Positions 1 to 39,624 of a DNA stretch of 64,000 nucleotides are shown here, one piece after another; positions within the stretch are counted from its first letter, which is position 1, and every line of letters starts with the position of its first letter. The notes below the pieces were generated by a model, which was not told the origin of the DNA, searched no databases, and was given only the letters and a program-made list of their open reading frames with translations. This DNA comes from Octopus vulgaris (taxonomy: Eukaryota): assembly GCA_951406725.2 (NCBI GenBank), contig CATOCA020000001.1:992001-1056000 (forward strand), given 5' to 3'. Made by a program: the position numbers and the translations under genes.

Positions 1-1420
1 TCTTAAAAAAGTCAGCTCATACTCGGATTTTATTATTTTTTCTTGACATAAACTGTTGCGGACGCCCATTTTGTGTGATCAATTTTTCAATAATGTCAAG
101 CTTTTCACGTCTATCCAATTCGCCGTTGACTTGTTTCAACGCGGCGAAAGTTACAGTTCGTTTTGGTTTAAATACCACTATAGCGTTTTCTTTCACTTGA
201 AAATTCGCATTTTTGATTCAAAGACCTAATTCATCAGAAAAACAAACTCAAGGAAATATAAAAATTTTTTTTTTTAATCCTCTGACGCCTTATTTGTACA
301 GGCGGAAGAACCATTCACATCTTTACGAAAGATATTTACGGGGAGGTCTCGTAAGTTGAATAATTCCATCCAGTCTGTTCCAAATAAATTTGTCTTATTA
401 TTCAACATAAAAACTTTGGCTCTCAAAATTTTTCAACGAATTGTAACATCACTTAACATTTCGCCCATAAAATGTAATTTCTTTCCTGAAACCCCTCGCG
501 CAATTTTCGAAGTTTCCTTTAATCTAGGTTTCCCTTTATTTCTCCATGCATCTGTGTTAAATATCGCGATATCACTGCACGTATCCAGCTGTAACTTCAC
601 ATTCCCCTTATTCAGTTTTATAGACACAAATTTTCTTTTTTGAGCCTCAGAATTTTTGTTGACATTCTTTCCAGAATATTTTCGTTCGACCTTTTTTATT
701 CGTTTCACTCTACAATGTGAGTTTTTACGTCCGATTTTTCCACACTTAAAACATTTTAGACCTTTAAAAGGACAGTTACCTTTAAAATGTAAACCTCCGT
801 ACTCAGAGTATGGACTGGGTTTTGACACTCGTTGTTTTTTTTTTTTAGCCGTTTCAGGTCGACACGCATAAATCTGTGAACAATCTTTTTCTTCAGTTTT
901 ATCCGCATCATGTCTTAAATTAATAATACTCTTGAATTCTTTAGCCGCTGCTTGTAGAGTTAAGTTTGGGTCTTGTTCAAATTTCGTTAATCTGCATCTT
1001 TGCTTGCAGTTAGCCCTCGAATAAAAATTAGACATTTGAATATGTTCGGAGTAAATTCATTTAATTTGAATTTTTCATACTCTCTGTTCACAACTCAAGC
1101 ATGGGTAACGAAATATTCCTCATGTTTTTGACTAAAGTTAAGCACTGCCAGTGAGAATTAAACGGGGAATTTGTTTCACTGGAAATTTTCGATAAAAAAG
1201 TTTCTTCAAATTAATTTCACATGACGTAGATTGCGATTATACTGAAATTTGTTTTTCATTATAACCATACGTTTTGATGATGTAGAATACAATTATGTTA
1301 GGAAAATACTTCTGAAGCATATTCCATCTTTTCCTATCTAGAATTTATTAAATGCGTATGTTTTCCATAAAAGGAAATTTTTCATAGATACTGTCTTAAT
1401 TCAAAATGTGAATTTGTTGA
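1..1420 (-). mobile_element. Degenerate Gypsy/Ty3 LTR retrotransposon fragment (gag zinc knuckle + aspartic protease), runs off the window edge
   Basis: ORF 433..1035 has a CCHC-like knuckle (CFKCGKIGRKNSHC) and a retropepsin-like motif (LQLDTCSDIAI); similar to the plus-strand element at 47135-51365; upper boundary approximate. Confidence 0.8.
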
Positions 1421-1960: not shown

Positions 1961-2076
1961 CTGAAACAAACATGAATTATTATTGTAAGAACAAGACAGA
2001 CGAATGAAATTCCACAGCCTGTTTTGGATATAATAGATAAGGCATTGTCTGTCTCTTTTTCAGCCTGGTAGACATT
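1961..2076 (-). CDS. Adhesion GPCR exon: linker + TM1 (NVYQAEKETDNALSIISKTGCGISFVCLVLTIIIHVCFR)
   Basis: ttttgtag acceptor and gtaagc donor; phase 0-2; typical aGPCR TM1 motif 'LSII..GCGIS..CL.LTI'. Confidence 0.93.
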
Positions 2077-2847: not shown

Positions 2848-2997
2848 CATTAGTACGGCAAAACTTGTAAGATGGTCACAGGAGCAAACTATTTCCTTTC
2901 CAGATACATGTTTGGATATTCGACAACCTCTTGATGACCACCCGGGAATCACTCCTGAGCTTTCATCCCAGTAAACACATTGTAGGTTGCTGGCATT
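2848..2997 (-). CDS. Adhesion GPCR exon: GPS motif with autoproteolysis site HL|T and Stachel TSFAVLM
   Basis: 150 bp, phase 0-0, NASNLQCVYWDES...WSSRGC...CSCDHLTSFAVLM; tttttcag acceptor, gttggt donor. Confidence 0.95.
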
Positions 2998-3395: not shown

Positions 3396-3524
3396 CTGAT
3401 CTAATATATTGAACGATATATTAACCGGTTCATCAAGGTCGCTTACTGAAAGGTTAGGAATGTTTGATGCAAGAACATGGCTGTTGATCCTAACATTTTG
3501 CTTGGTACCAGCGTTTTGTGTTAC
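3396..3524 (-). CDS. Adhesion GPCR exon: GAIN subdomain B (VTQNAGTKQNVRINSHVLASNIPNLSVSDLDEPVNISFNILDQ)
   Basis: 129 bp, phase 0-0, tttacag / gtaata; 'INS.V...L.EPV.I.F' GAIN pattern. Confidence 0.9.
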
Positions 3525-4951: not shown

Positions 4952-6138
4952 CAGGGGTTGGACAAAATAATGGAAACACCTAACATCATAGCATCATAAT
5001 TTTGAAATATCTATGAAACCGTCAAAAGCTTGTTTATTTTTGTTTTTTGATTTATTATTAGTGTCCCTAATGTTTTGCTAAAATTGCTGTTTCTTTTCAG
5101 ATATCATCAGAAAAATGTAATTAAAATTTATCAAAATGACAGATCTGTCAGACTTTCAAAGAGGTAAAATTGTTGGTAGGCGCTAGCATAACGAAAACAG
5201 CCGAAATGTTTGGTGTATTAAGAAGTACTGTCTCGAAAGTAATGAGAAAACCTCTTCGTCGAAACAAAACTCCGGAAGAAAACCAAAACTTTCAGATAGG
5301 GACGTGAATTGTTAGAAAAGATCACAAGAGTACAGCTCCCAAAATTACTGCAGAGCTTAATGACCACCTCGAGAACCCAGTTCCGACAGAAACTGTTCGC
5401 CGAGAGCTGCACAAAGCCGGATTACATGAGAGGGCTGCAATCAGAAAACCATTACTTTCAAAAACAAACGTTAGAGTGGAGTAAAAACCTACAGAATTGA
5501 TCCCTAGAGCAGTGGAAGAATTTTATTTTCTCGGTCGAGTCATCCTCTACCTTAGTTTCGACCATCGGCCGAGTATACGCGTAGAAACAGACAAAAGAAG
5601 TATTTGACCCCGCCTTCCTTCTTCCAACTGTTAAACATGGAGGAGGATCTGTGTTGATCTGAGTGGCTATATCTTGGAAATCCGCCGGCTCAATTATCTC
5701 CCTTCATGGCAGTATTAATAGTCAAGACTATTTAAGCATTTTATTTGATCAGCTTCATCCTATGACTGCGGAACTGCTTCCAGGGGGAAACGCAATCATT
5801 CAGGATGATAATGCACCAATTCACACAGCTAAAGTTGTTACTGAATGGCATGAAGAACATTCTAGTGCAGTCGAACATCTTATCTGGCCACCACTGTCCC
5901 CAAATCTCAATATTATTGAACATTTATGGTTCATTTTAGAAAAACAAGTAAGGTGTTGATATCCTTCACCATCATCACTACAAGAACTGGAGACTGTTTT
6001 AGCTGAAGAATGGAGAAAAATTCCTTTGGAAACAATTCAAACTTTGTACGAGTCCATACCTCGCAGAATTCAAGCCAAAGACGATCCTACCTCATATTAA
6101 AATACATTTGTTTGAGATTTTAAGGTGTCCAACCTCTG
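4952..6138 (+). mobile_element. Tc1-like DNA transposon, degenerate DD34E transposase
   Basis: TA-flanked cagggg/ctctg ends with partly deleted right TIR; IIQDDNAPIH and WPPLSPNLNIIEHLW motifs; frameshifts. Confidence 0.9.
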
Positions 6139-7677: not shown

Positions 7678-7835
7678 CCTATATAGCTTATCGTCCCGCA
7701 TGGAGAAAAAGTTATCCGTTTCACGGATGACCTTTCTTCGTCTTTCAGATGTTTTAATAAACTCCTTGGTAATGAAATAGATGCCATGATCTTCGCATCT
7801 GCTTCTTGTTGGTCGGGATTTGGTGAGTCGTATAT
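7678..7835 (-). CDS. Adhesion GPCR exon: GAIN (IYDSP...ASISLPRSLL...KRITF/FSMRDDKLYR) with an apparent 1-nt frameshift
   Basis: ccaccag / gtatgg; 158 bp between two phase-0 junctions; 'SISLP' and 'F..RDDKLY' motifs lie in different frames that switch at A5 7706-7710. Confidence 0.85.
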
Positions 7836-9104: not shown

Positions 9105-9276
9105 CCATGTTTTTGGTTCTGTTTCATTGGTTCCATAGGAAACGCCATAGAAAAGACCATCGAATGTATCATTTTTCACTTTGGCAACACCAATACCAAG
9201 ATTAGAATAGATAGCTGTGACTTGCTGCTCCTCCAGTGGAATCTTTTCTGGGATTTCTTGTATAAGATGCAGCAAT
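9105..9276 (-). CDS. Adhesion GPCR exon: GAIN A/B junction (LLHLIQEIPEKIPLEEQQVTAIYSNLGIGVAKV...EPKTW)
   Basis: 172 bp, phase 2-0, ctcacag / gtacca; continues the open frame from the upstream exon. Confidence 0.88.
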
Positions 9277-9712: not shown

Positions 9713-9932
9713 CTGTTGTCACTTCTATTCTCTTGTTCAGCTCCAGCCAAAACCTCCTCTGGTATGTTAATCAAATTGTTTATGGACCGAAGTGTATTAT
9801 TCGCAGACACTTTCGGTATCAATGACACCATTTTCTCATGAATGCCTACAGCCAAGTCAACATCAACTTCTTTGAAATATATTGATTTCTTTGATATATT
9901 TAACATCTCTTCCGAAATATTGTCGAAGTTTG
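9713..9932 (-). CDS. Adhesion GPCR exon: GAIN subdomain A helices (NFDNISEEMLNISKKSIYFKEVDVDLAV...EQENRSDNR)
   Basis: 220 bp, phase 1-2, ttttccag / gtaata; resembles ADGRG-type 'DVD...I.NL...L..A.....NR' helices. Confidence 0.9.
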
Positions 9933-11927: not shown

Positions 11928-12085
11928 CTGTATCGATACTTATTACGATGTCCTTCAGTCGTTGAGTGATCCAATCTGTATTGTTACATTGTGACATGTC
12001 TGGTTCTTTCCAGATACCAGTAAACGGTGAACACTTTGCTGCCGTCATATATTGACTTGATGCCATTTCTGAGTCTCTGGGAGAA
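11928..12085 (-). CDS. Adhesion GPCR exon: HormR C-terminal half (SPRDSEM...CSPFTGIWKEPDMSQCNNTDWITQRLKDI...)
   Basis: 158 bp, phase 2-1, tttttcag / gtgagt; HormR 'W..PD.S.C' motif. Confidence 0.9.
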
Positions 12086-12556: not shown

Positions 12557-12671
12557 CAGTATCTTGTTGCTAAATATGCATGACATGGGATTTCTGCAGT
12601 AGTTCCTATTTTTGTCATTGGCCAGGAGAAGGTTTGATTGTTATTTGATGTTGTGCTTTCATCACAAACCA
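12557..12671 (-). CDS. Adhesion GPCR exon: HormR N-terminal half (VCDESTTSNNNQTFSWPMTKIGTTAEIPCHAYLATRYC)
   Basis: 115 bp, phase 1-2, ttttcag / gttcgt; 'C...WP.T..G....PC...ATR.C' HormR signature. Confidence 0.92.
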
Positions 12672-15459: not shown

Positions 15460-15608
15460 TTTCATCAAACCTATCTATGTAACTTTGCTGAACACCGACG
15501 TTACGCAAAGTTTGGGATGTGTTTAAAACTTGGGAGATATTGCGCAACAGTTGTTTTTTAGATGTCTTGCTATATGGCTTGGAGTAAATTGCAAATATCG
15601 TCCGGTTT
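15460..15608 (-). CDS. Adhesion GPCR exon: SEA-like segment part 3 (NRTIFAIYSKPYSKTSKKQLLRNISQVLNTSQTLRNVGVQQSYIDRFDE)
   Basis: Strong gtaagt donor; phase 2-1 fits both neighbours; acceptor ggacag is weak and may be shifted from 15617. Confidence 0.75.
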
Positions 15609-15658
15609 CTGTCCAAATTGAAATAAGAATAAATACACGTATATAGATAGATAAAGGA

Positions 15659-16500: not shown

Positions 16501-19067
<2,567 letters not shown>

Positions 19068-19372: not shown

Positions 19373-19422
19373 CCACAATATTCAATAGTGAAGGTTCCCG
19401 TCGTGGTTAACTCACGTTCCAT
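19373..19422 (-). CDS. Adhesion GPCR small exon: SEA-like part 2 ([17 protein letters not shown])
   Basis: 50 bp, phase 0-2, ctcttgcag / gtaagc; bridges the phases of the flanking exons. Confidence 0.78.
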
Positions 19423-21520: not shown

Positions 21521-21603
21521 AGCTTTTGATAAGTTCTCAGCAGAGATTTTATATTCGCTGAACTTTTTAAAAGTCAAATGGAATACGAAGAAATTGGTCC
21601 AGT
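21521..21603 (-). CDS. Adhesion GPCR exon: SEA-like part 1 (DWTNFFVFHLTFKKFSEYKISAENLSKA)
   Basis: 83 bp, phase 1-0, ttccatag / gtgagt. Confidence 0.8.
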
Positions 21604-23923: not shown

Positions 23924-24107
23924 CAAGGAAATCATTCTTGTTACATAAGTTTCCGACACAACAACCAGTACAAGAAGTGCCATTGGTCCATTTATTGCAA
24001 GTAAGGGTATTGTTTCTCATAGCTTCAACACATTTTCTGTATGTGCTGCAGGACTTTTCAATCTTCATTGTTACACCGTTCATTGACATTGCAAATCGGC
24101 ATACTGG
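23924..24107 (-). CDS. Adhesion GPCR exon: Ly6/uPAR three-finger domain, C-terminal part (PVCRF...EKSCSTYRKC...CTGCCVGNLCNKNDFL)
   Basis: 184 bp, phase 0-1, ttacag / gtaagt; diagnostic CC-x4-CN terminus. Confidence 0.9.
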
Positions 24108-25339
24108 CTGTAATAATAGATATAAAAATGATGTACTACAACCATAACATTTACTACTATGACTACTGCTAACTACAGCAACAACAACTCTAGAAATGTT
24201 TATCAAGCAACAAGGTTTAATCATTGCTTTAAAAATAGCATAAAGCAAGAAATGAAACCGAAAACAACTTGTCAAAGAATTGAAAATTGACAACATAAGT
24301 AATTCTCTGTAAAATTTATGGTGATTTACGACTTATAATAAATAATGTTTTGAATACTTACATTATTCAAAGTTCTCTGATCACATGTAGATATGGCCAT
24401 CGAATCACGGTTCAAATCAAAACCACTTCACTCTGCCACCCACCATAAAACTTAAGATAGGTAAAATAATCCCAATAATTATGTATCATTCCGCCAAAGT
24501 TTCCTCTGCATCGGGAATGCAAACGGGGATTTTTTTGATACAACATTTACGAAACATTATGTGTACAAAACTCACCAGCAACAGCAAATCATACACCCGT
24601 ACCCAAAGCTGATAATTAAATAAATTTATCAGATTGAACACCTCAGGCTTTGCAAATAAAACAGAAAATGCATAAATAGACACAAGAGAAATATGCTTTT
24701 ATTTTGCAAGTATATTTTATGGTCACGAAACGAAAATAGGATATGTAAAATGTGGAGAGATCATAGCTAAGATCCAAATGTATCATCGGACCTCACTAAA
24801 CTTAATAAAATATTTTCTGAAAATAAAAAATATCAGAAATTGAGAACATTTAAAGGGGAAAATGCACCACAAAATACAATTAATGATTTCATACACCTAA
24901 CAACGATAAAAGCAAAGGGAATGTAGTTCACGAAGTTAGTAATATATGTAGCCTTAATTTGAGCCTGAAACTCGGGTCTTTCAAACTAGGAGAATTTCCA
25001 GGAATAAAAATGCAGATCTCTGAAACTGAGTTACGATGTCATGAACAAATAACCAATAGAAACTGCACATAATACCGGTAGCCTGGCGTCTTCAAAAAAG
25101 CCAATGAAGTCGGTGATTGGAAACGAATGAAGCTTTAAATAAGCTAAGTCAGTTTCAAGAAAACAGAAAGGTCTCAGAGCAGAACAGACAATGAAATAGA
25201 GAACAGAGTGCAGCCATGCACTTATATCAAACTCTATTCTCCTATATTCCCGTATATCAGTTAAGGTGAAGCATTGGTCTGTGTCATTACCAATGTACTG
25301 GAGTACAACTACGTGGTCAGACATACGCCTGGCAATTTC

Positions 25340-25920
25340 AAATCGTGTTTTAGCTGCGTTTTAAACGTATTGCTTGTGTCTTTTCCACTTGAAATAATAC
25401 TAAATTATGTTCTGAAGTGTTTGTTGTACTACTTGATGTGAGCGAAGATTTAATAAGCTTTCAATTTTTCATTAGTAGAGATATATAATATTTCTCTGTT
25501 GTTGTACCTTTCAACCTCGTCTATCAGACAGCCTCTTTTGCTATAGAGACCAGACAAAGGATAACTGTCATTTGCTGCCTTAACTAATTCATTGATCCGT
25601 ATTTTGTAATCTTTGCGAACTGGCCACGTCCGACTTCTAACTACCCCCTCTAAGTCTAGCGACTCCAGATCATTCTACAAGGAACCTTGATCTCAAGTTG
25701 CCTCCTGGTCACGTACATTCATACATCCCACTCTAAGTACAGCTATGTTTATCATAAGTTCTTGTGTTCGATTGTTGGGCAGGGTTCAATGTTGTTTCCT
25801 TGCACTTCGTTTTAGTCTACTCAAGTAAAAATGGATCCCAGCTTAGTGTTTGTCATCTATTTCTCCCTTCAATCTTCAGATATTTGTTGTCCCATTGAGT
25901 CATGGATAAGAAGATCAATA
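25340..25920 (+). mobile_element. Highly degenerate non-LTR (CR1/L2/Jockey-like) RT fragment
   Basis: Residual VLLDVSE and GQGSML motifs; no intact ORF. Confidence 0.4.
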
Positions 25921-26015
25921 AGGTGTTCATGTCTACATAGGCACCTACAACAATTAGCGAGTGACAGTTACGGATATATCTTAACGGAAAGGAAGAAAAT
26001 AAGATCCTAGTTTAC

Positions 26016-26107
26016 CTCTGCTCCTGGACAACTGGTTACAGATGACTCATTGCACGTCATCTTTGAACATGTTTGACACTGCAAATTCCTTTGAAATAAC
26101 GAGTAAT
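26016..26107 (-). CDS. Adhesion GPCR exon: Ly6/uPAR domain, N-terminal part (YSLFQRNLQCQTCSKMTCNESSVTSCPGAE)
   Basis: 92 bp, phase 1-0, ttctgtag / gtaaac; LxCxxC start typical of LU domains. Confidence 0.88.
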
Positions 26108-26820: not shown

Positions 26821-27019
26821 GTGGAAATATATATATATATCTGTAAATGTAATATGTGACAATTATTCGGTAGCCATAATAAAACTCCGAGTTTCGGATG
26901 TCGGGGTGGAAATTCACGCCGCCATCTCTTCAGTTATCCGGCCATCAGAAAGAAATGCCCATATATATATATATATATATACAGATATATATCACATACA
27001 TATATATATATACACACAC

Positions 27020-28110
27020 ATGCGGGGTCATCGAAAAAGGTTTCCGTGCTTTTCAAAATGAAATAACTAAGTCTGTATTAAAGGAATTTTTCTGCGTAGA
27101 CAATCTTCTTAAGAACCCCACCCCCTAAAAAGTCCATAGGAGTTAGATCAGAGATTCTAAGTGGCCACAGAATAGGACCATTCCTTCCAATCCAGCGGCC
27201 AGGAATCTGTTGTTGAGAACTTGTCGCACATTGTGGCTGTAGTGAGCTGGTGCTCCGTCCTGCTGGAAAATTACACTGATTCTCTTTTTTCTTTCAATGT
27301 CTGCAATTTGAGCTATTTGAGGGAACAGATAAATTTCTAGTATGTCCAAGTAACTAGCGCCTGTAATCGTGTTTTCTACGAATATGAAAGGGCCAAGAGC
27401 ACGATCCTGCAGGAGTCCACACCATACATGAAACTTGGGCGAATCACGGACGTACTGGAAGACTTCATGGGGTTGTTGAGCTCCACATATCTGACTGTTA
27501 TATCGCTTAACACAACCATTTAAGTGGAATGTTGCTTCATCACTAAATAAAAATTCTGTTAAGATAACTGTTATCGTCATCAATTTCTCTCACCATCGTT
27601 ACAGCAAATTTAGCGCTTTCAGGCCAATCAGTCTCCTTAATTTTACGTCCCATTTGAATTCTGTAAGCATTCAGTCTTAGGCGTTTTGAATTGTTGTTTT
27701 AGACATACGAAACTCCAAACTGCGTCGATTGATGGACTTCTTAAGACAAGGTAAACATAACAGTCTCAAACGCTCTACATTCTTTTCCAGCGTGCGAGGC
27801 CGGCCTGGAGATTTCTTAATATTTACATTTCCAGTTTCTTAAACCTGGTTAAACCAGCGAACAGTGGTTTTGTCTGTAGGGGTATCTTGTCCGTAAGTAC
27901 GCTGAAAACGACGTTGCACTAAAACAACTGACTTAAACTCAGCGTACCACAACACATACTGCACTTTCTGCTGTAAAGTCGCCATGATTGCCGTGGAGAG
28001 ACTGTCCAGACGCTCGCTAGTGAAATAGTGATTTGAAGGACAACGCAGTGGCAAATATCAAAACACCTACAGTTGTTATACAGTCGAACGTTGATTTTAG
28101 TTGTCAATTA
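27020..28110 (-). mobile_element. Tc1/mariner-superfamily transposon remnant with HTH (DUF4817-like) N-terminus
   Basis: MATLQQKVQYVLWYAEFKSVVLVQRRF, FSDEATFHLNG and FQQDGAPAHY motifs; ends approximate. Confidence 0.85.
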
Positions 28111-39552: not shown

Positions 39553-39624
39553 ATTGTCTTTATACTGGGCAGGAATAGGAAAGCGCCATCTTCATACTTT
39601 TGTATTTGGTTGTTTTGCAACTTT
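39553..39624 (-). CDS. Adhesion GPCR exon: leucine-rich repeat (KLQNNQIQKYEDGAFLFLPSIKTI)
   Basis: 72 bp, phase 2-2 (typical LRR exon), ttttcag / gtaagg. Confidence 0.9.

What the first reader, a model, noticed from the sequence alone, without database searches (positions are those of the whole stretch)
23924..26107. Three-finger (Ly6/uPAR) domain tethered inside a GPCR ectodomain
Seen: LQCQTC...C...C...C...KSC...C...C...C..CC....CN, 12 cysteines over two exons. Established: LU folds occur in GPI-anchored modulators of nicotinic receptors and ion channels (lynx1, quiver/sleepless), in snake toxins and in TGF-beta receptor ectodomains; the canonical fold has 10 Cys. Inference: the domain may bind a ligand or channel in cis or trans and would be shed with the N-terminal fragment after GPS cleavage. 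A link to nicotinic-type receptors in cephalopods is speculation.
Basis: partly seen in the sequence, partly recalled or inferred. Interest (0 to 1): 0.72.

Follow-up and report, generated by a model that had tools for sequence, protein, structure and literature searches.

The report
Three-finger domain in octopus adhesion receptor
Two exons encode a 12-cysteine domain, predicted to fold like the human three-finger protein Lynx2, in the middle of the outer arm of an octopus adhesion receptor; the same layout occurs in scallops and a sea urchin and such receptors are already in print, so it is likely an old structural or helper-binding part of a known kind of receptor.

Summary
Minus-strand exons 26107-26016 and 24107-23924 join in frame to a 12-Cys domain. 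It is a LYPD1/Lynx2-type LU domain: profile hit to PDB 6zss at E 1.4e-6; AlphaFold model pLDDT 80, whose top 29 structural matches are all three-finger folds (best Lynx2, Z 7.9). It sits inside an LRR-LRRCT-LU-SEA-HormR-GAIN-GPS-7TM adhesion GPCR. Three 4-kb contigs encode relatives with the whole chain in one frame, but the LU-to-GAIN joint of this copy was not seen in RNA. The genome holds at least 65 copies of the second exon. The family is the published octopus 'group 3' expansion, whose annotation missed the domain. The layout is old (scallops, sea urchin). LU-bearing GPCRs are in print for starfish and molluscs, and 12 cysteines are normal for this subgroup. Nothing supports a nicotinic link; the variable surface is the LRR face, not the LU. 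This copy has two one-base frameshifts, probably assembly errors. The scan noted the same architecture before on other DNA.

The parts
26016..26107 (-). LU domain exon 1 (Cys1-4, loop I), phase 1 to 0
   Evidence: in P0005 from residue 119
23924..24107 (-). LU domain exon 2 (Cys5-12, loops II and III, CCxxxxCN end), phase 0 to 1
   Evidence: 65 matches in the genome
44622..44693 (-). 72-nt single-LRR exon, phase 2-2
39553..39624 (-). 72-nt LRR exon (last full repeat), phase 2-2
   Evidence: Pfam LRR_8 on P0005
32035..32192 (-). LRR C-terminal cap exon (4 Cys); cap assignment from its position and cysteine pattern (recalled)
21521..21603 (-). SEA-like domain exon 1
   Evidence: Pfam SEA below cut-off in relatives (E 0.0015; E 0.013)
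19373..19422 (-). SEA-like domain exon 2
   Evidence: joint to the next exon seen in contigs of runs X1 and X9
15460..15608 (-). SEA-like domain exon 3; the acceptor used by paralogs 9 nt upstream reads AA here
12557..12671 (-). HormR domain exon 1
   Evidence: joint to the SEA exon in run X1
11928..12085 (-). HormR domain exon 2
9713..9932 (-). GAIN exon 1
9105..9276 (-). GAIN exon 2
7678..7835 (-). GAIN exon 3; 158 nt here against 159 in intact paralogs (one base short in a T run near 7706-7710)
3396..3524 (-). GAIN exon 4
2848..2997 (-). GPS exon with H-L|T-S-F site and start of the putative tethered agonist
1961..2076 (-). TM1 exon; the other 7TM exons lie just beyond the window (L001)

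Best explanation
The two exons encode a 12-cysteine module, predicted to be a LYPD1/Lynx2-type three-finger domain, that lies between the leucine-rich repeats and a likely SEA domain of an ADGRG2/G6-like adhesion GPCR, where it likely serves as a conserved, disulfide-locked link or helper docking site rather than as the receptor's variable sensor. Shown: exons, phases, cysteine pattern, domain order, GPS consensus, copy number, relatives outside cephalopods. Predicted: the fold. Inferred: the receptor cleaves itself at H-L|T; a partner is caught by the fast-changing concave face of the LRRs; the LU-SEA-HormR stalk passes pull or a shape change to the GAIN domain; the tethered peptide then activates the 7TM part; the LU leaves with the N-terminal fragment if that is shed.
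For: Profile of 37 family domains hits human LYPD1 end to end, all 12 Cys aligned, E 1.4e-6; all 11 hits to E 10 are three-finger folds. The last six cysteine spacings equal those of LYPD1, and a scallop relative (P0052) matches all eleven. The model (pLDDT 79.9, pTM 0.74) has a long loop-II hairpin and a loop-III helix, as described for Lynx2 (PMC7582953 passages). VIA-align: 6zss Z 7.9, rmsd 2.6, 79 aligned; rows 1-29 are three-finger folds and the first unrelated row is Z 4.9. P0045, P0071 and P0072 are 1155-aa full-length receptors on contigs of 3988-4449 bases, hence spliced. 43 of 65 LU exon copies have a GPS exon within 60 kb downstream on the same strand; controls gave 1 and 1. 36 of 41 GPS exons read H-L-T. 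The same layout occurs in Pecten, Ylistrum and Lytechinus. In 11 paralogs, mean pairwise identity is 21% on the concave LRR positions, 76% on the convex ones and 68% on LU non-cysteine positions. The nearest solved receptors are ADGRG2 and ADGRG6; ADGRG6 has a SEA domain before HormR and GAIN (PMC6954182, abstract and section 11).
Against: No ligand or binding data exist. No LU Pfam model reaches its cut-off, and the window's own domain gets no LU hit. Foldseek gave no match at E<=0.001 (best 0.026), and Z under 8 alone is weak by the tool's note. The first fold, on 6 sequences, failed (pLDDT 35). LU exon 2 is not strongly conserved among octopus copies: dN/dS 0.54, or 0.77 without Cys, against 0.43 and 0.50 for the GPS exon; it is near 1 in recent pairs for both, and 7 of 60 fetched copies lost cysteines. 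Some paralog models have two or three LU domains, which fits a binding role as well as a spacer. The LU-to-SEA joint of this copy was not seen in RNA. The copy has two frameshifts in the assembly.
Confidence: 0.6

Rival explanations
1. The LU domain is a tethered Lynx-type modulator: in cis, in trans or after shedding it binds nicotinic-type channels (for example the cephalopod chemotactile receptors, recalled from memory) and tunes them.
For: The best sequence and structure match is Lynx2/LYPD1, a nicotinic-receptor binder (search listing only). The same idea was proposed for the starfish LU-GPCR LyAr2 (PMC11595613 passages). One LU-bearing group 3 gene is expressed 71% in skin and 17% in sucker in O. 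bimaculoides (PMC6408891 supplement 2).
Against: A shared fold shows no function; identity to Lynx2 is 22%. The domain has no GPI anchor and is flanked by LRR and SEA modules. The layout predates cephalopods. The six group 3 rows seen in the parts of supplement 2 that I read peak in skin, viscera, testes or axial nerve cord, with no shared tissue.
Confidence: 0.12
2. The LU domain is the main ligand site for a conserved protein partner (TGF-beta/BMP-type growth factor, LRP5/6 or an integrin), making the receptor a developmental signal integrator.
For: ACVR1, TGF-beta receptor I and LYPD6 ectodomains appear among the weak hits. The domain has been kept from echinoderms to octopus, and its first two spacings and the helix region are well conserved.
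Against: Those hits are weak (E 0.011 and above) and share only the fold. Near-neutral change at non-Cys sites in recent copies fits poorly with one conserved ligand.
Confidence: 0.15
3. This particular copy is a decaying or truncated duplicate: it makes at most a secreted LRR-LU-SEA-HormR fragment (a possible decoy), whatever intact paralogs do.
For: There is a one-base deletion in GAIN exon 3 and a second frameshift in the last large 7TM exon, and a shifted splice acceptor near 15618. No signal-peptide or LRRNT exon was found in the window or in 100 kb upstream. 22 of 65 LU copies have no GPS match within 60 kb. Contig depth 39.9 in run X1 lacks the extra base.
Against: Both breaks lie in T runs. 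The short form occurs in 7 of 14 close copies of 93-100% identity, and the second run has 4, 5 or 6 T in three near-identical copies, the pattern of homopolymer errors. Run X13 shows the extra base at depth 143.7 of 171. All 16 exons keep AG/GT ends and none has a stop. The GPS list is a lower bound.
Confidence: 0.3

Closest known systems
LU-domain GPCRs of starfish (LyAr2, LyAp2), molluscs and arthropods (PMC9410279 and PMC11595613, passages; PMC13719153, parts 1-3 of 4)
   Same: [quoted passage not shown] The starfish domain is likewise closest to Lynx2/LYPD6. The 2026 survey lists 7TM architectures for Mollusca, and its Fig. 2 legend names LRR, GPS and 7TM.
   Different: The text I read does not name octopus, a SEA domain or a large expansion. 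Its figures and supplements could not be read, so octopus entries may be there.
Octopus-specific adhesion GPCR expansion, group 3 (Ritschard et al. 2019, PMC6408891; parts 1-4 of 6, supplement searches, supplement 2 parts 5-6)
   Same: Two listed members (A0A0L8FLR8 = P0088, A0A0L8HDZ7 = P0073) carry this 12-Cys domain. The paper reports GPS, 7TM, LRR, tandem copies and expression outside the brain.
   Different: Its three supplements have 0 occurrences of Ly6, uPAR or toxin, so the domain was not recognised. It counts about 21 members over the species studied; this genome has at least 65 LU exon copies.
Human LYPD1 (Lynx2), PDB 6zss; also LYPD6 and LYPD6B
   Same: 12 Cys aligned end to end, same last six spacings, loop-III helix, Z 7.9.
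   Different: LYPD1 is a single GPI-anchored domain. This one is internal to a large receptor, has a shorter loop I (spacing 2-4-7-6 against 2-8-8-7) and is 22% identical.
Vertebrate ADGRG6 (GPR126) and ADGRG2
   Same: Best solved matches for GAIN-7TM (E 1e-66 to 1e-60); SEA-HormR-GAIN stalk as in ADGRG6 (PMC6954182).
   Different: ADGRG6 begins with CUB and pentraxin domains; this family has LRR-LU in that place. One-to-one orthology was not tested.

Membership tests
Ly6/uPAR (LU, three-finger) domain | Core cysteine pattern ending in CCxxxxCN, 60-90 residues | tested here: met
   79 residues, 12 Cys, aligned one to one with LYPD1
Ly6/uPAR (LU, three-finger) domain | Three-finger beta fold | tested here: met
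   Predicted model only: pLDDT 79.9; top 29 VIA rows are three-finger folds, best Z 7.9, rmsd 2.6, 79 aligned; Foldseek TM 0.64 to 6zss but E 0.13
Ly6/uPAR (LU, three-finger) domain | Match to a Pfam LU-clan profile above its curated cut-off | tested here: not met
   No hit for the window's own domain; relatives reach only E 0.0042-0.14
LYPD1/LYPD6 subgroup | Six disulfides with extra bonds in loops I and III, and a loop-III helix | tested here: inconclusive
   12 Cys and helix 54-68 are present; the pairing itself is inferred from the alignment and was not read from the model
Lynx-type channel modulators | Stand-alone secreted or GPI-anchored LU protein | tested here: not met
   Internal phase 1-1 module between LRRCT and SEA exons
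Lynx-type channel modulators | Binds and modulates nicotinic receptors | not testable with these tools
   Needs binding or electrophysiology
Adhesion GPCR | GAIN domain with GPS motif next to a secretin-class 7TM | tested here: met
   Pfam 7tm_2 E 8e-28 on P0005; GPS E 5e-14 on its close paralog P0006; GPS exon at 2997-2848 and 7TM exons in L001
Adhesion GPCR | H-L|T/S cleavage consensus | tested here: met
   H-L-T in this copy and in 36 of 41 GPS exons
Adhesion GPCR | Autoproteolysis and tethered-agonist signalling | not testable with these tools
   Needs expression in cells
Adhesion GPCR | Unbroken reading frame from ectodomain to 7TM in this copy | tested here: inconclusive
   Two one-base breaks in T runs, probably assembly errors
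Octopus group 3 adhesion GPCRs (Ritschard 2019) | Falls in the clade of listed group 3 members | tested here: met
   P0006 (7TM 94% identical to P0005) lies in a 100/99 clade with P0043 and P0048, cluster-mates of two listed members; P0005 itself was left out of the tree because its model skips the GPS exon
ADGRG6 (GPR126) | N-terminal CUB and pentraxin domains | tested here: not met
   No CUB or pentraxin Pfam hit in the 23 proteins scanned; LRRs stand in that place

The most novel reading that the evidence does not exclude
Octopuses have multiplied a receptor that couples a hypervariable LRR sensor to a Lynx2-like finger, so that ligand capture or shedding delivers a tethered channel modulator to nicotinic-type receptors in skin and suckers, linking adhesion signalling directly to ion-channel tuning.
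Probability: 0.08. Interest if true: 0.85.

Novelty: new member of a known kind. Interest (0 to 1): 0.3.

Why it matters
It fills in the missing part of a published octopus receptor expansion. The full arm is LRR-LU-SEA-HormR-GAIN, built from phase 1-1 exon cassettes, and it is older than cephalopods. That tells an experimenter where to look: the LRR face for ligand specificity, the LU for a shared partner or a structural role. It would matter much more if the finger were shown to act on an ion channel; nothing here points to that.

Tried and rejected
First fold on 6 close sequences failed (pLDDT 35) and was not used. ESM Atlas gave no usable hit. Pfam scans did not name the domain above cut-off. 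The run search listed no holder on record as RNA; the runs laid are contigs whose RNA status is a guess. The read laying covered SEA to GAIN only and was swamped by repeats. It showed two exon joints from paralog-like contigs (6 and 10 differing letters in 158). Each contig has 107 further letters upstream once the SEA exons are counted, which fits LU exon 2, but those letters were not displayed. No complex was predicted, since no binding is claimed. The concave-face index was wrong and was redone; three models with mis-spliced LRR ends were dropped, leaving 11 of 14. The higher LU identity to scallops (31-34%) was not taken as special conservation, because 12 of 79 positions are cysteines. 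Rejected: a stand-alone toxin-like gene (no own signal exon, phase 1-1 internal module); a cephalopod novelty; '12 Cys is unusual'. Paper searches: octopus + adhesion G protein-coupled receptor + three-finger gave 0 papers; led to the papers cited. Subscription journals were not searched.

Full report
Observation. Both have AG/GT borders, and the phases join them in frame. The product has 12 cysteines spaced 2-4-7-6-16-5-10-8-2-0-4. The CxxCCxxxxCN end occurs once in the window and in 0 of 100 shuffles.

The gene. Sixteen exons could be traced on the same strand: two 72-nt LRR exons, an LRR cap, the two LU exons, three SEA-like exons, two HormR exons, four GAIN exons, the GPS exon and TM1. The other 7TM exons lie in the next 10 kb beyond the window. 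Fourteen of the 16 translate letter for letter into P0005, which its source names an Octopus vulgaris ADGRG6-like receptor; that model skips GAIN exon 3 and the GPS exon. Pfam gives LRR_8 and 7tm_2 above cut-off and HRM below it on P0005, GPS on the close paralog P0006, and SEA below cut-off on relatives. The LU, SEA and HormR modules each begin and end in phase 1.

Fold. Exon 2 alone gave three weak PDB hits: ACVR1 and two LYPD6 entries. A profile of 8 distant members hit human LYPD1 (Lynx2, 6zss) at E 1e-5, and all 13 rows were three-finger folds. A profile of 37 members gave E 1.4e-6 with every cysteine aligned. A first fold on 6 close sequences failed. The 37-sequence fold reached pLDDT 79.9, with short loop-I strands, a long hairpin at 32-53, a helix at 54-68 and a strand at 76-81. 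Lynx2 has six disulfides and a long loop-III helix (PMC7582953, passages). VIA-align ranked Lynx2 first (Z 7.9, rmsd 2.6, 79 aligned), tied with Lynx1, Prod1, GPIHBP1 and LYPD6B; rows 1-29 are three-finger folds and the first unrelated row has Z 4.9. Foldseek found nothing at E<=0.001 but listed the same folds, with the best TM-score (0.64) for 6zss. No Pfam LU model reaches its cut-off, which explains why annotation missed the domain.

Splicing to GAIN. For the family it is shown indirectly. P0045, P0071 and P0072 are 1155-aa proteins on contigs of 4201, 4449 and 3988 bases; P0045 runs from an N-terminal leader through LRR, LU and GPS to the 7TM. Such short contigs must be spliced transcripts (inference); their organism is not given. 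43 of 65 LU exon copies have a GPS exon within 60 kb downstream on the same strand, against 1 and 1 in the two controls. For this copy it is not shown. Contigs of runs X1 and X9 join SEA exon 2 to SEA exon 3, and X1 joins that to HormR exon 1, but they differ from this copy at 6 and 10 of 158 letters, and the LU exons were outside the stretch laid.

Family and age. The genome gives 65 matches to exon 2 (68 candidates scored), mostly on three contigs. Of 60 fetched, 53 keep all eight cysteines; 57 and 58 of the 59 ungapped, stop-free exons (this copy included) keep the AG and GT. Searches with domain profiles returned Octopus proteins, Argonauta, three scallops and the sea urchin Lytechinus. 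The Pecten, Ylistrum and Lytechinus proteins have LRR, the 12-Cys domain, GPS and 7TM; the urchin one has a long Ser/Thr-rich stalk after the LU. A GPS-7TM tree of 19 proteins puts 15 Octopus rows in one 100/99 clade, apart from scallops and urchin (midpoint root). Two proteins listed in group 3 of Ritschard et al. 2019 carry the domain, so this is that expansion.

Which part varies. Earlier scan notes said the LRR face changes fast, and I tested this on 11 paralogs. Identity is 21% at ten concave positions of the last two repeats, 76% at ten convex ones and 68% at LU non-cysteine sites. This is a small test on non-independent sequences. By Nei-Gojobori counts LU exon 2 has dN/dS 0.54 (0.77 without Cys; 54 distinct exons) and the GPS exon 0.43 (0.50; 41 exons). 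Both are near 1 among recent pairs once cysteines are removed. So the LU frame is kept, its surface drifts about as the rest of the gene does, and it is not the hypervariable part.

Mechanism. From the general adhesion-GPCR scheme (own knowledge; ADGRG6 in PMC6954182, abstract and section 11), the receptor would cleave at H-L|T, found here and in 36 of 41 GPS exons. A partner caught by the LRRs would act through the LU-SEA-HormR stalk on the GAIN domain and free the tethered peptide. The LU most likely forms a rigid link or a helper docking site (0.6). A growth-factor or co-receptor site (0.15) and a Lynx-like channel modulator (0.12) are not excluded; neither has support beyond the fold. Expression of two LU-bearing group 3 genes in O. 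bimaculoides differs: 71% skin and 17% sucker for one, broad with 25% axial nerve cord for the other.

State of this copy. GAIN exon 3 is one base short in a T run, and the last large 7TM exon has a second break. The short form is in 7 of 14 close copies, the second run has 4, 5 or 6 T in three near-identical copies, and run X13 has the extra base at depth 143.7 of 171. I read these as assembly errors, at about 0.7. Against that: run X1 shows depth 39.9 there without the base, one acceptor is shifted by 9 nt, and no 5' exons were found within 100 kb.

What is in print. LU domains in adhesion GPCRs were noted in starfish in 2022 (PMC9410279, passages) and 2024, with likeness to Lynx2 and the nicotinic speculation already made (PMC11595613, passages). 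A 2026 survey reports them in molluscs and arthropods (PMC13719153, parts 1-3 of 4); its figures and supplements were not readable and may list octopus members. The octopus expansion is in PMC6408891 (parts 1-4 of 6), whose supplements do not mention Ly6 or uPAR. A search for octopus, adhesion G protein-coupled receptor and three-finger found 0 papers in the held library. Two earlier scan notes describe the same architecture on other DNA; they are not independent evidence.

Verdict. A real LU domain of the LYPD1 type in a known kind of receptor. The addition is the full domain order and the size of the octopus family. New member of a known kind; interest 0.3.

Noticed in passing
window 7706-7710 and L001 about 2548-2552: Two one-base frameshifts in T runs; the same runs vary in length among near-identical paralogs (7 of 14 short at the first site), which suggests homopolymer errors that break many gene models of this family.
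   Followed up: partly
window 2848-2997 and 7678-7835: The public model P0005 skips the GPS exon and GAIN exon 3, although both have good splice sites; its paralog model P0008 reads the broken exon in the wrong frame.
   Followed up: yes
G000:C31 near 909000, 9341500 and 9476300: Three near-identical copies of the GAIN-GPS-7TM half with no LU exon match of their own within 60 kb upstream; conversely 22 of 65 LU copies lack a nearby GPS match. Partial duplications or ectodomain-only genes.
   Followed up: partly
G000:C31, about 42 kb and 73 kb beyond the window's end: Two more single-LRR exons on the same strand; they may belong to this gene. No signal-peptide or LRRNT exon was found.
   Followed up: partly
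window 26107-23924, 21603-15460, 12671-11928: LU, SEA and HormR are each phase 1-1 cassettes, which would explain paralog models with two or three LU domains or without SEA or HormR.
   Followed up: partly
window 16800-18700, minus strand: A decayed retroelement-like stretch in an intron, with long open frames (238 and 163 aa); the class is a guess from memory and was not tested.
   Followed up: no
window 436-1056, minus strand: A 207-aa open frame with a zinc-knuckle and protease-like look (Gypsy-type by recall), in the intron after TM1.
   Followed up: no
window 26933-27900 and 5140-5481: Tc1/mariner-like transposase remnants (by recall) in introns.
   Followed up: no
P0039 (O. sinensis): One fragment of the family is already named 'ly6/PLAUR domain-containing protein 1-like' by NCBI's automatic annotation.
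   Followed up: yes
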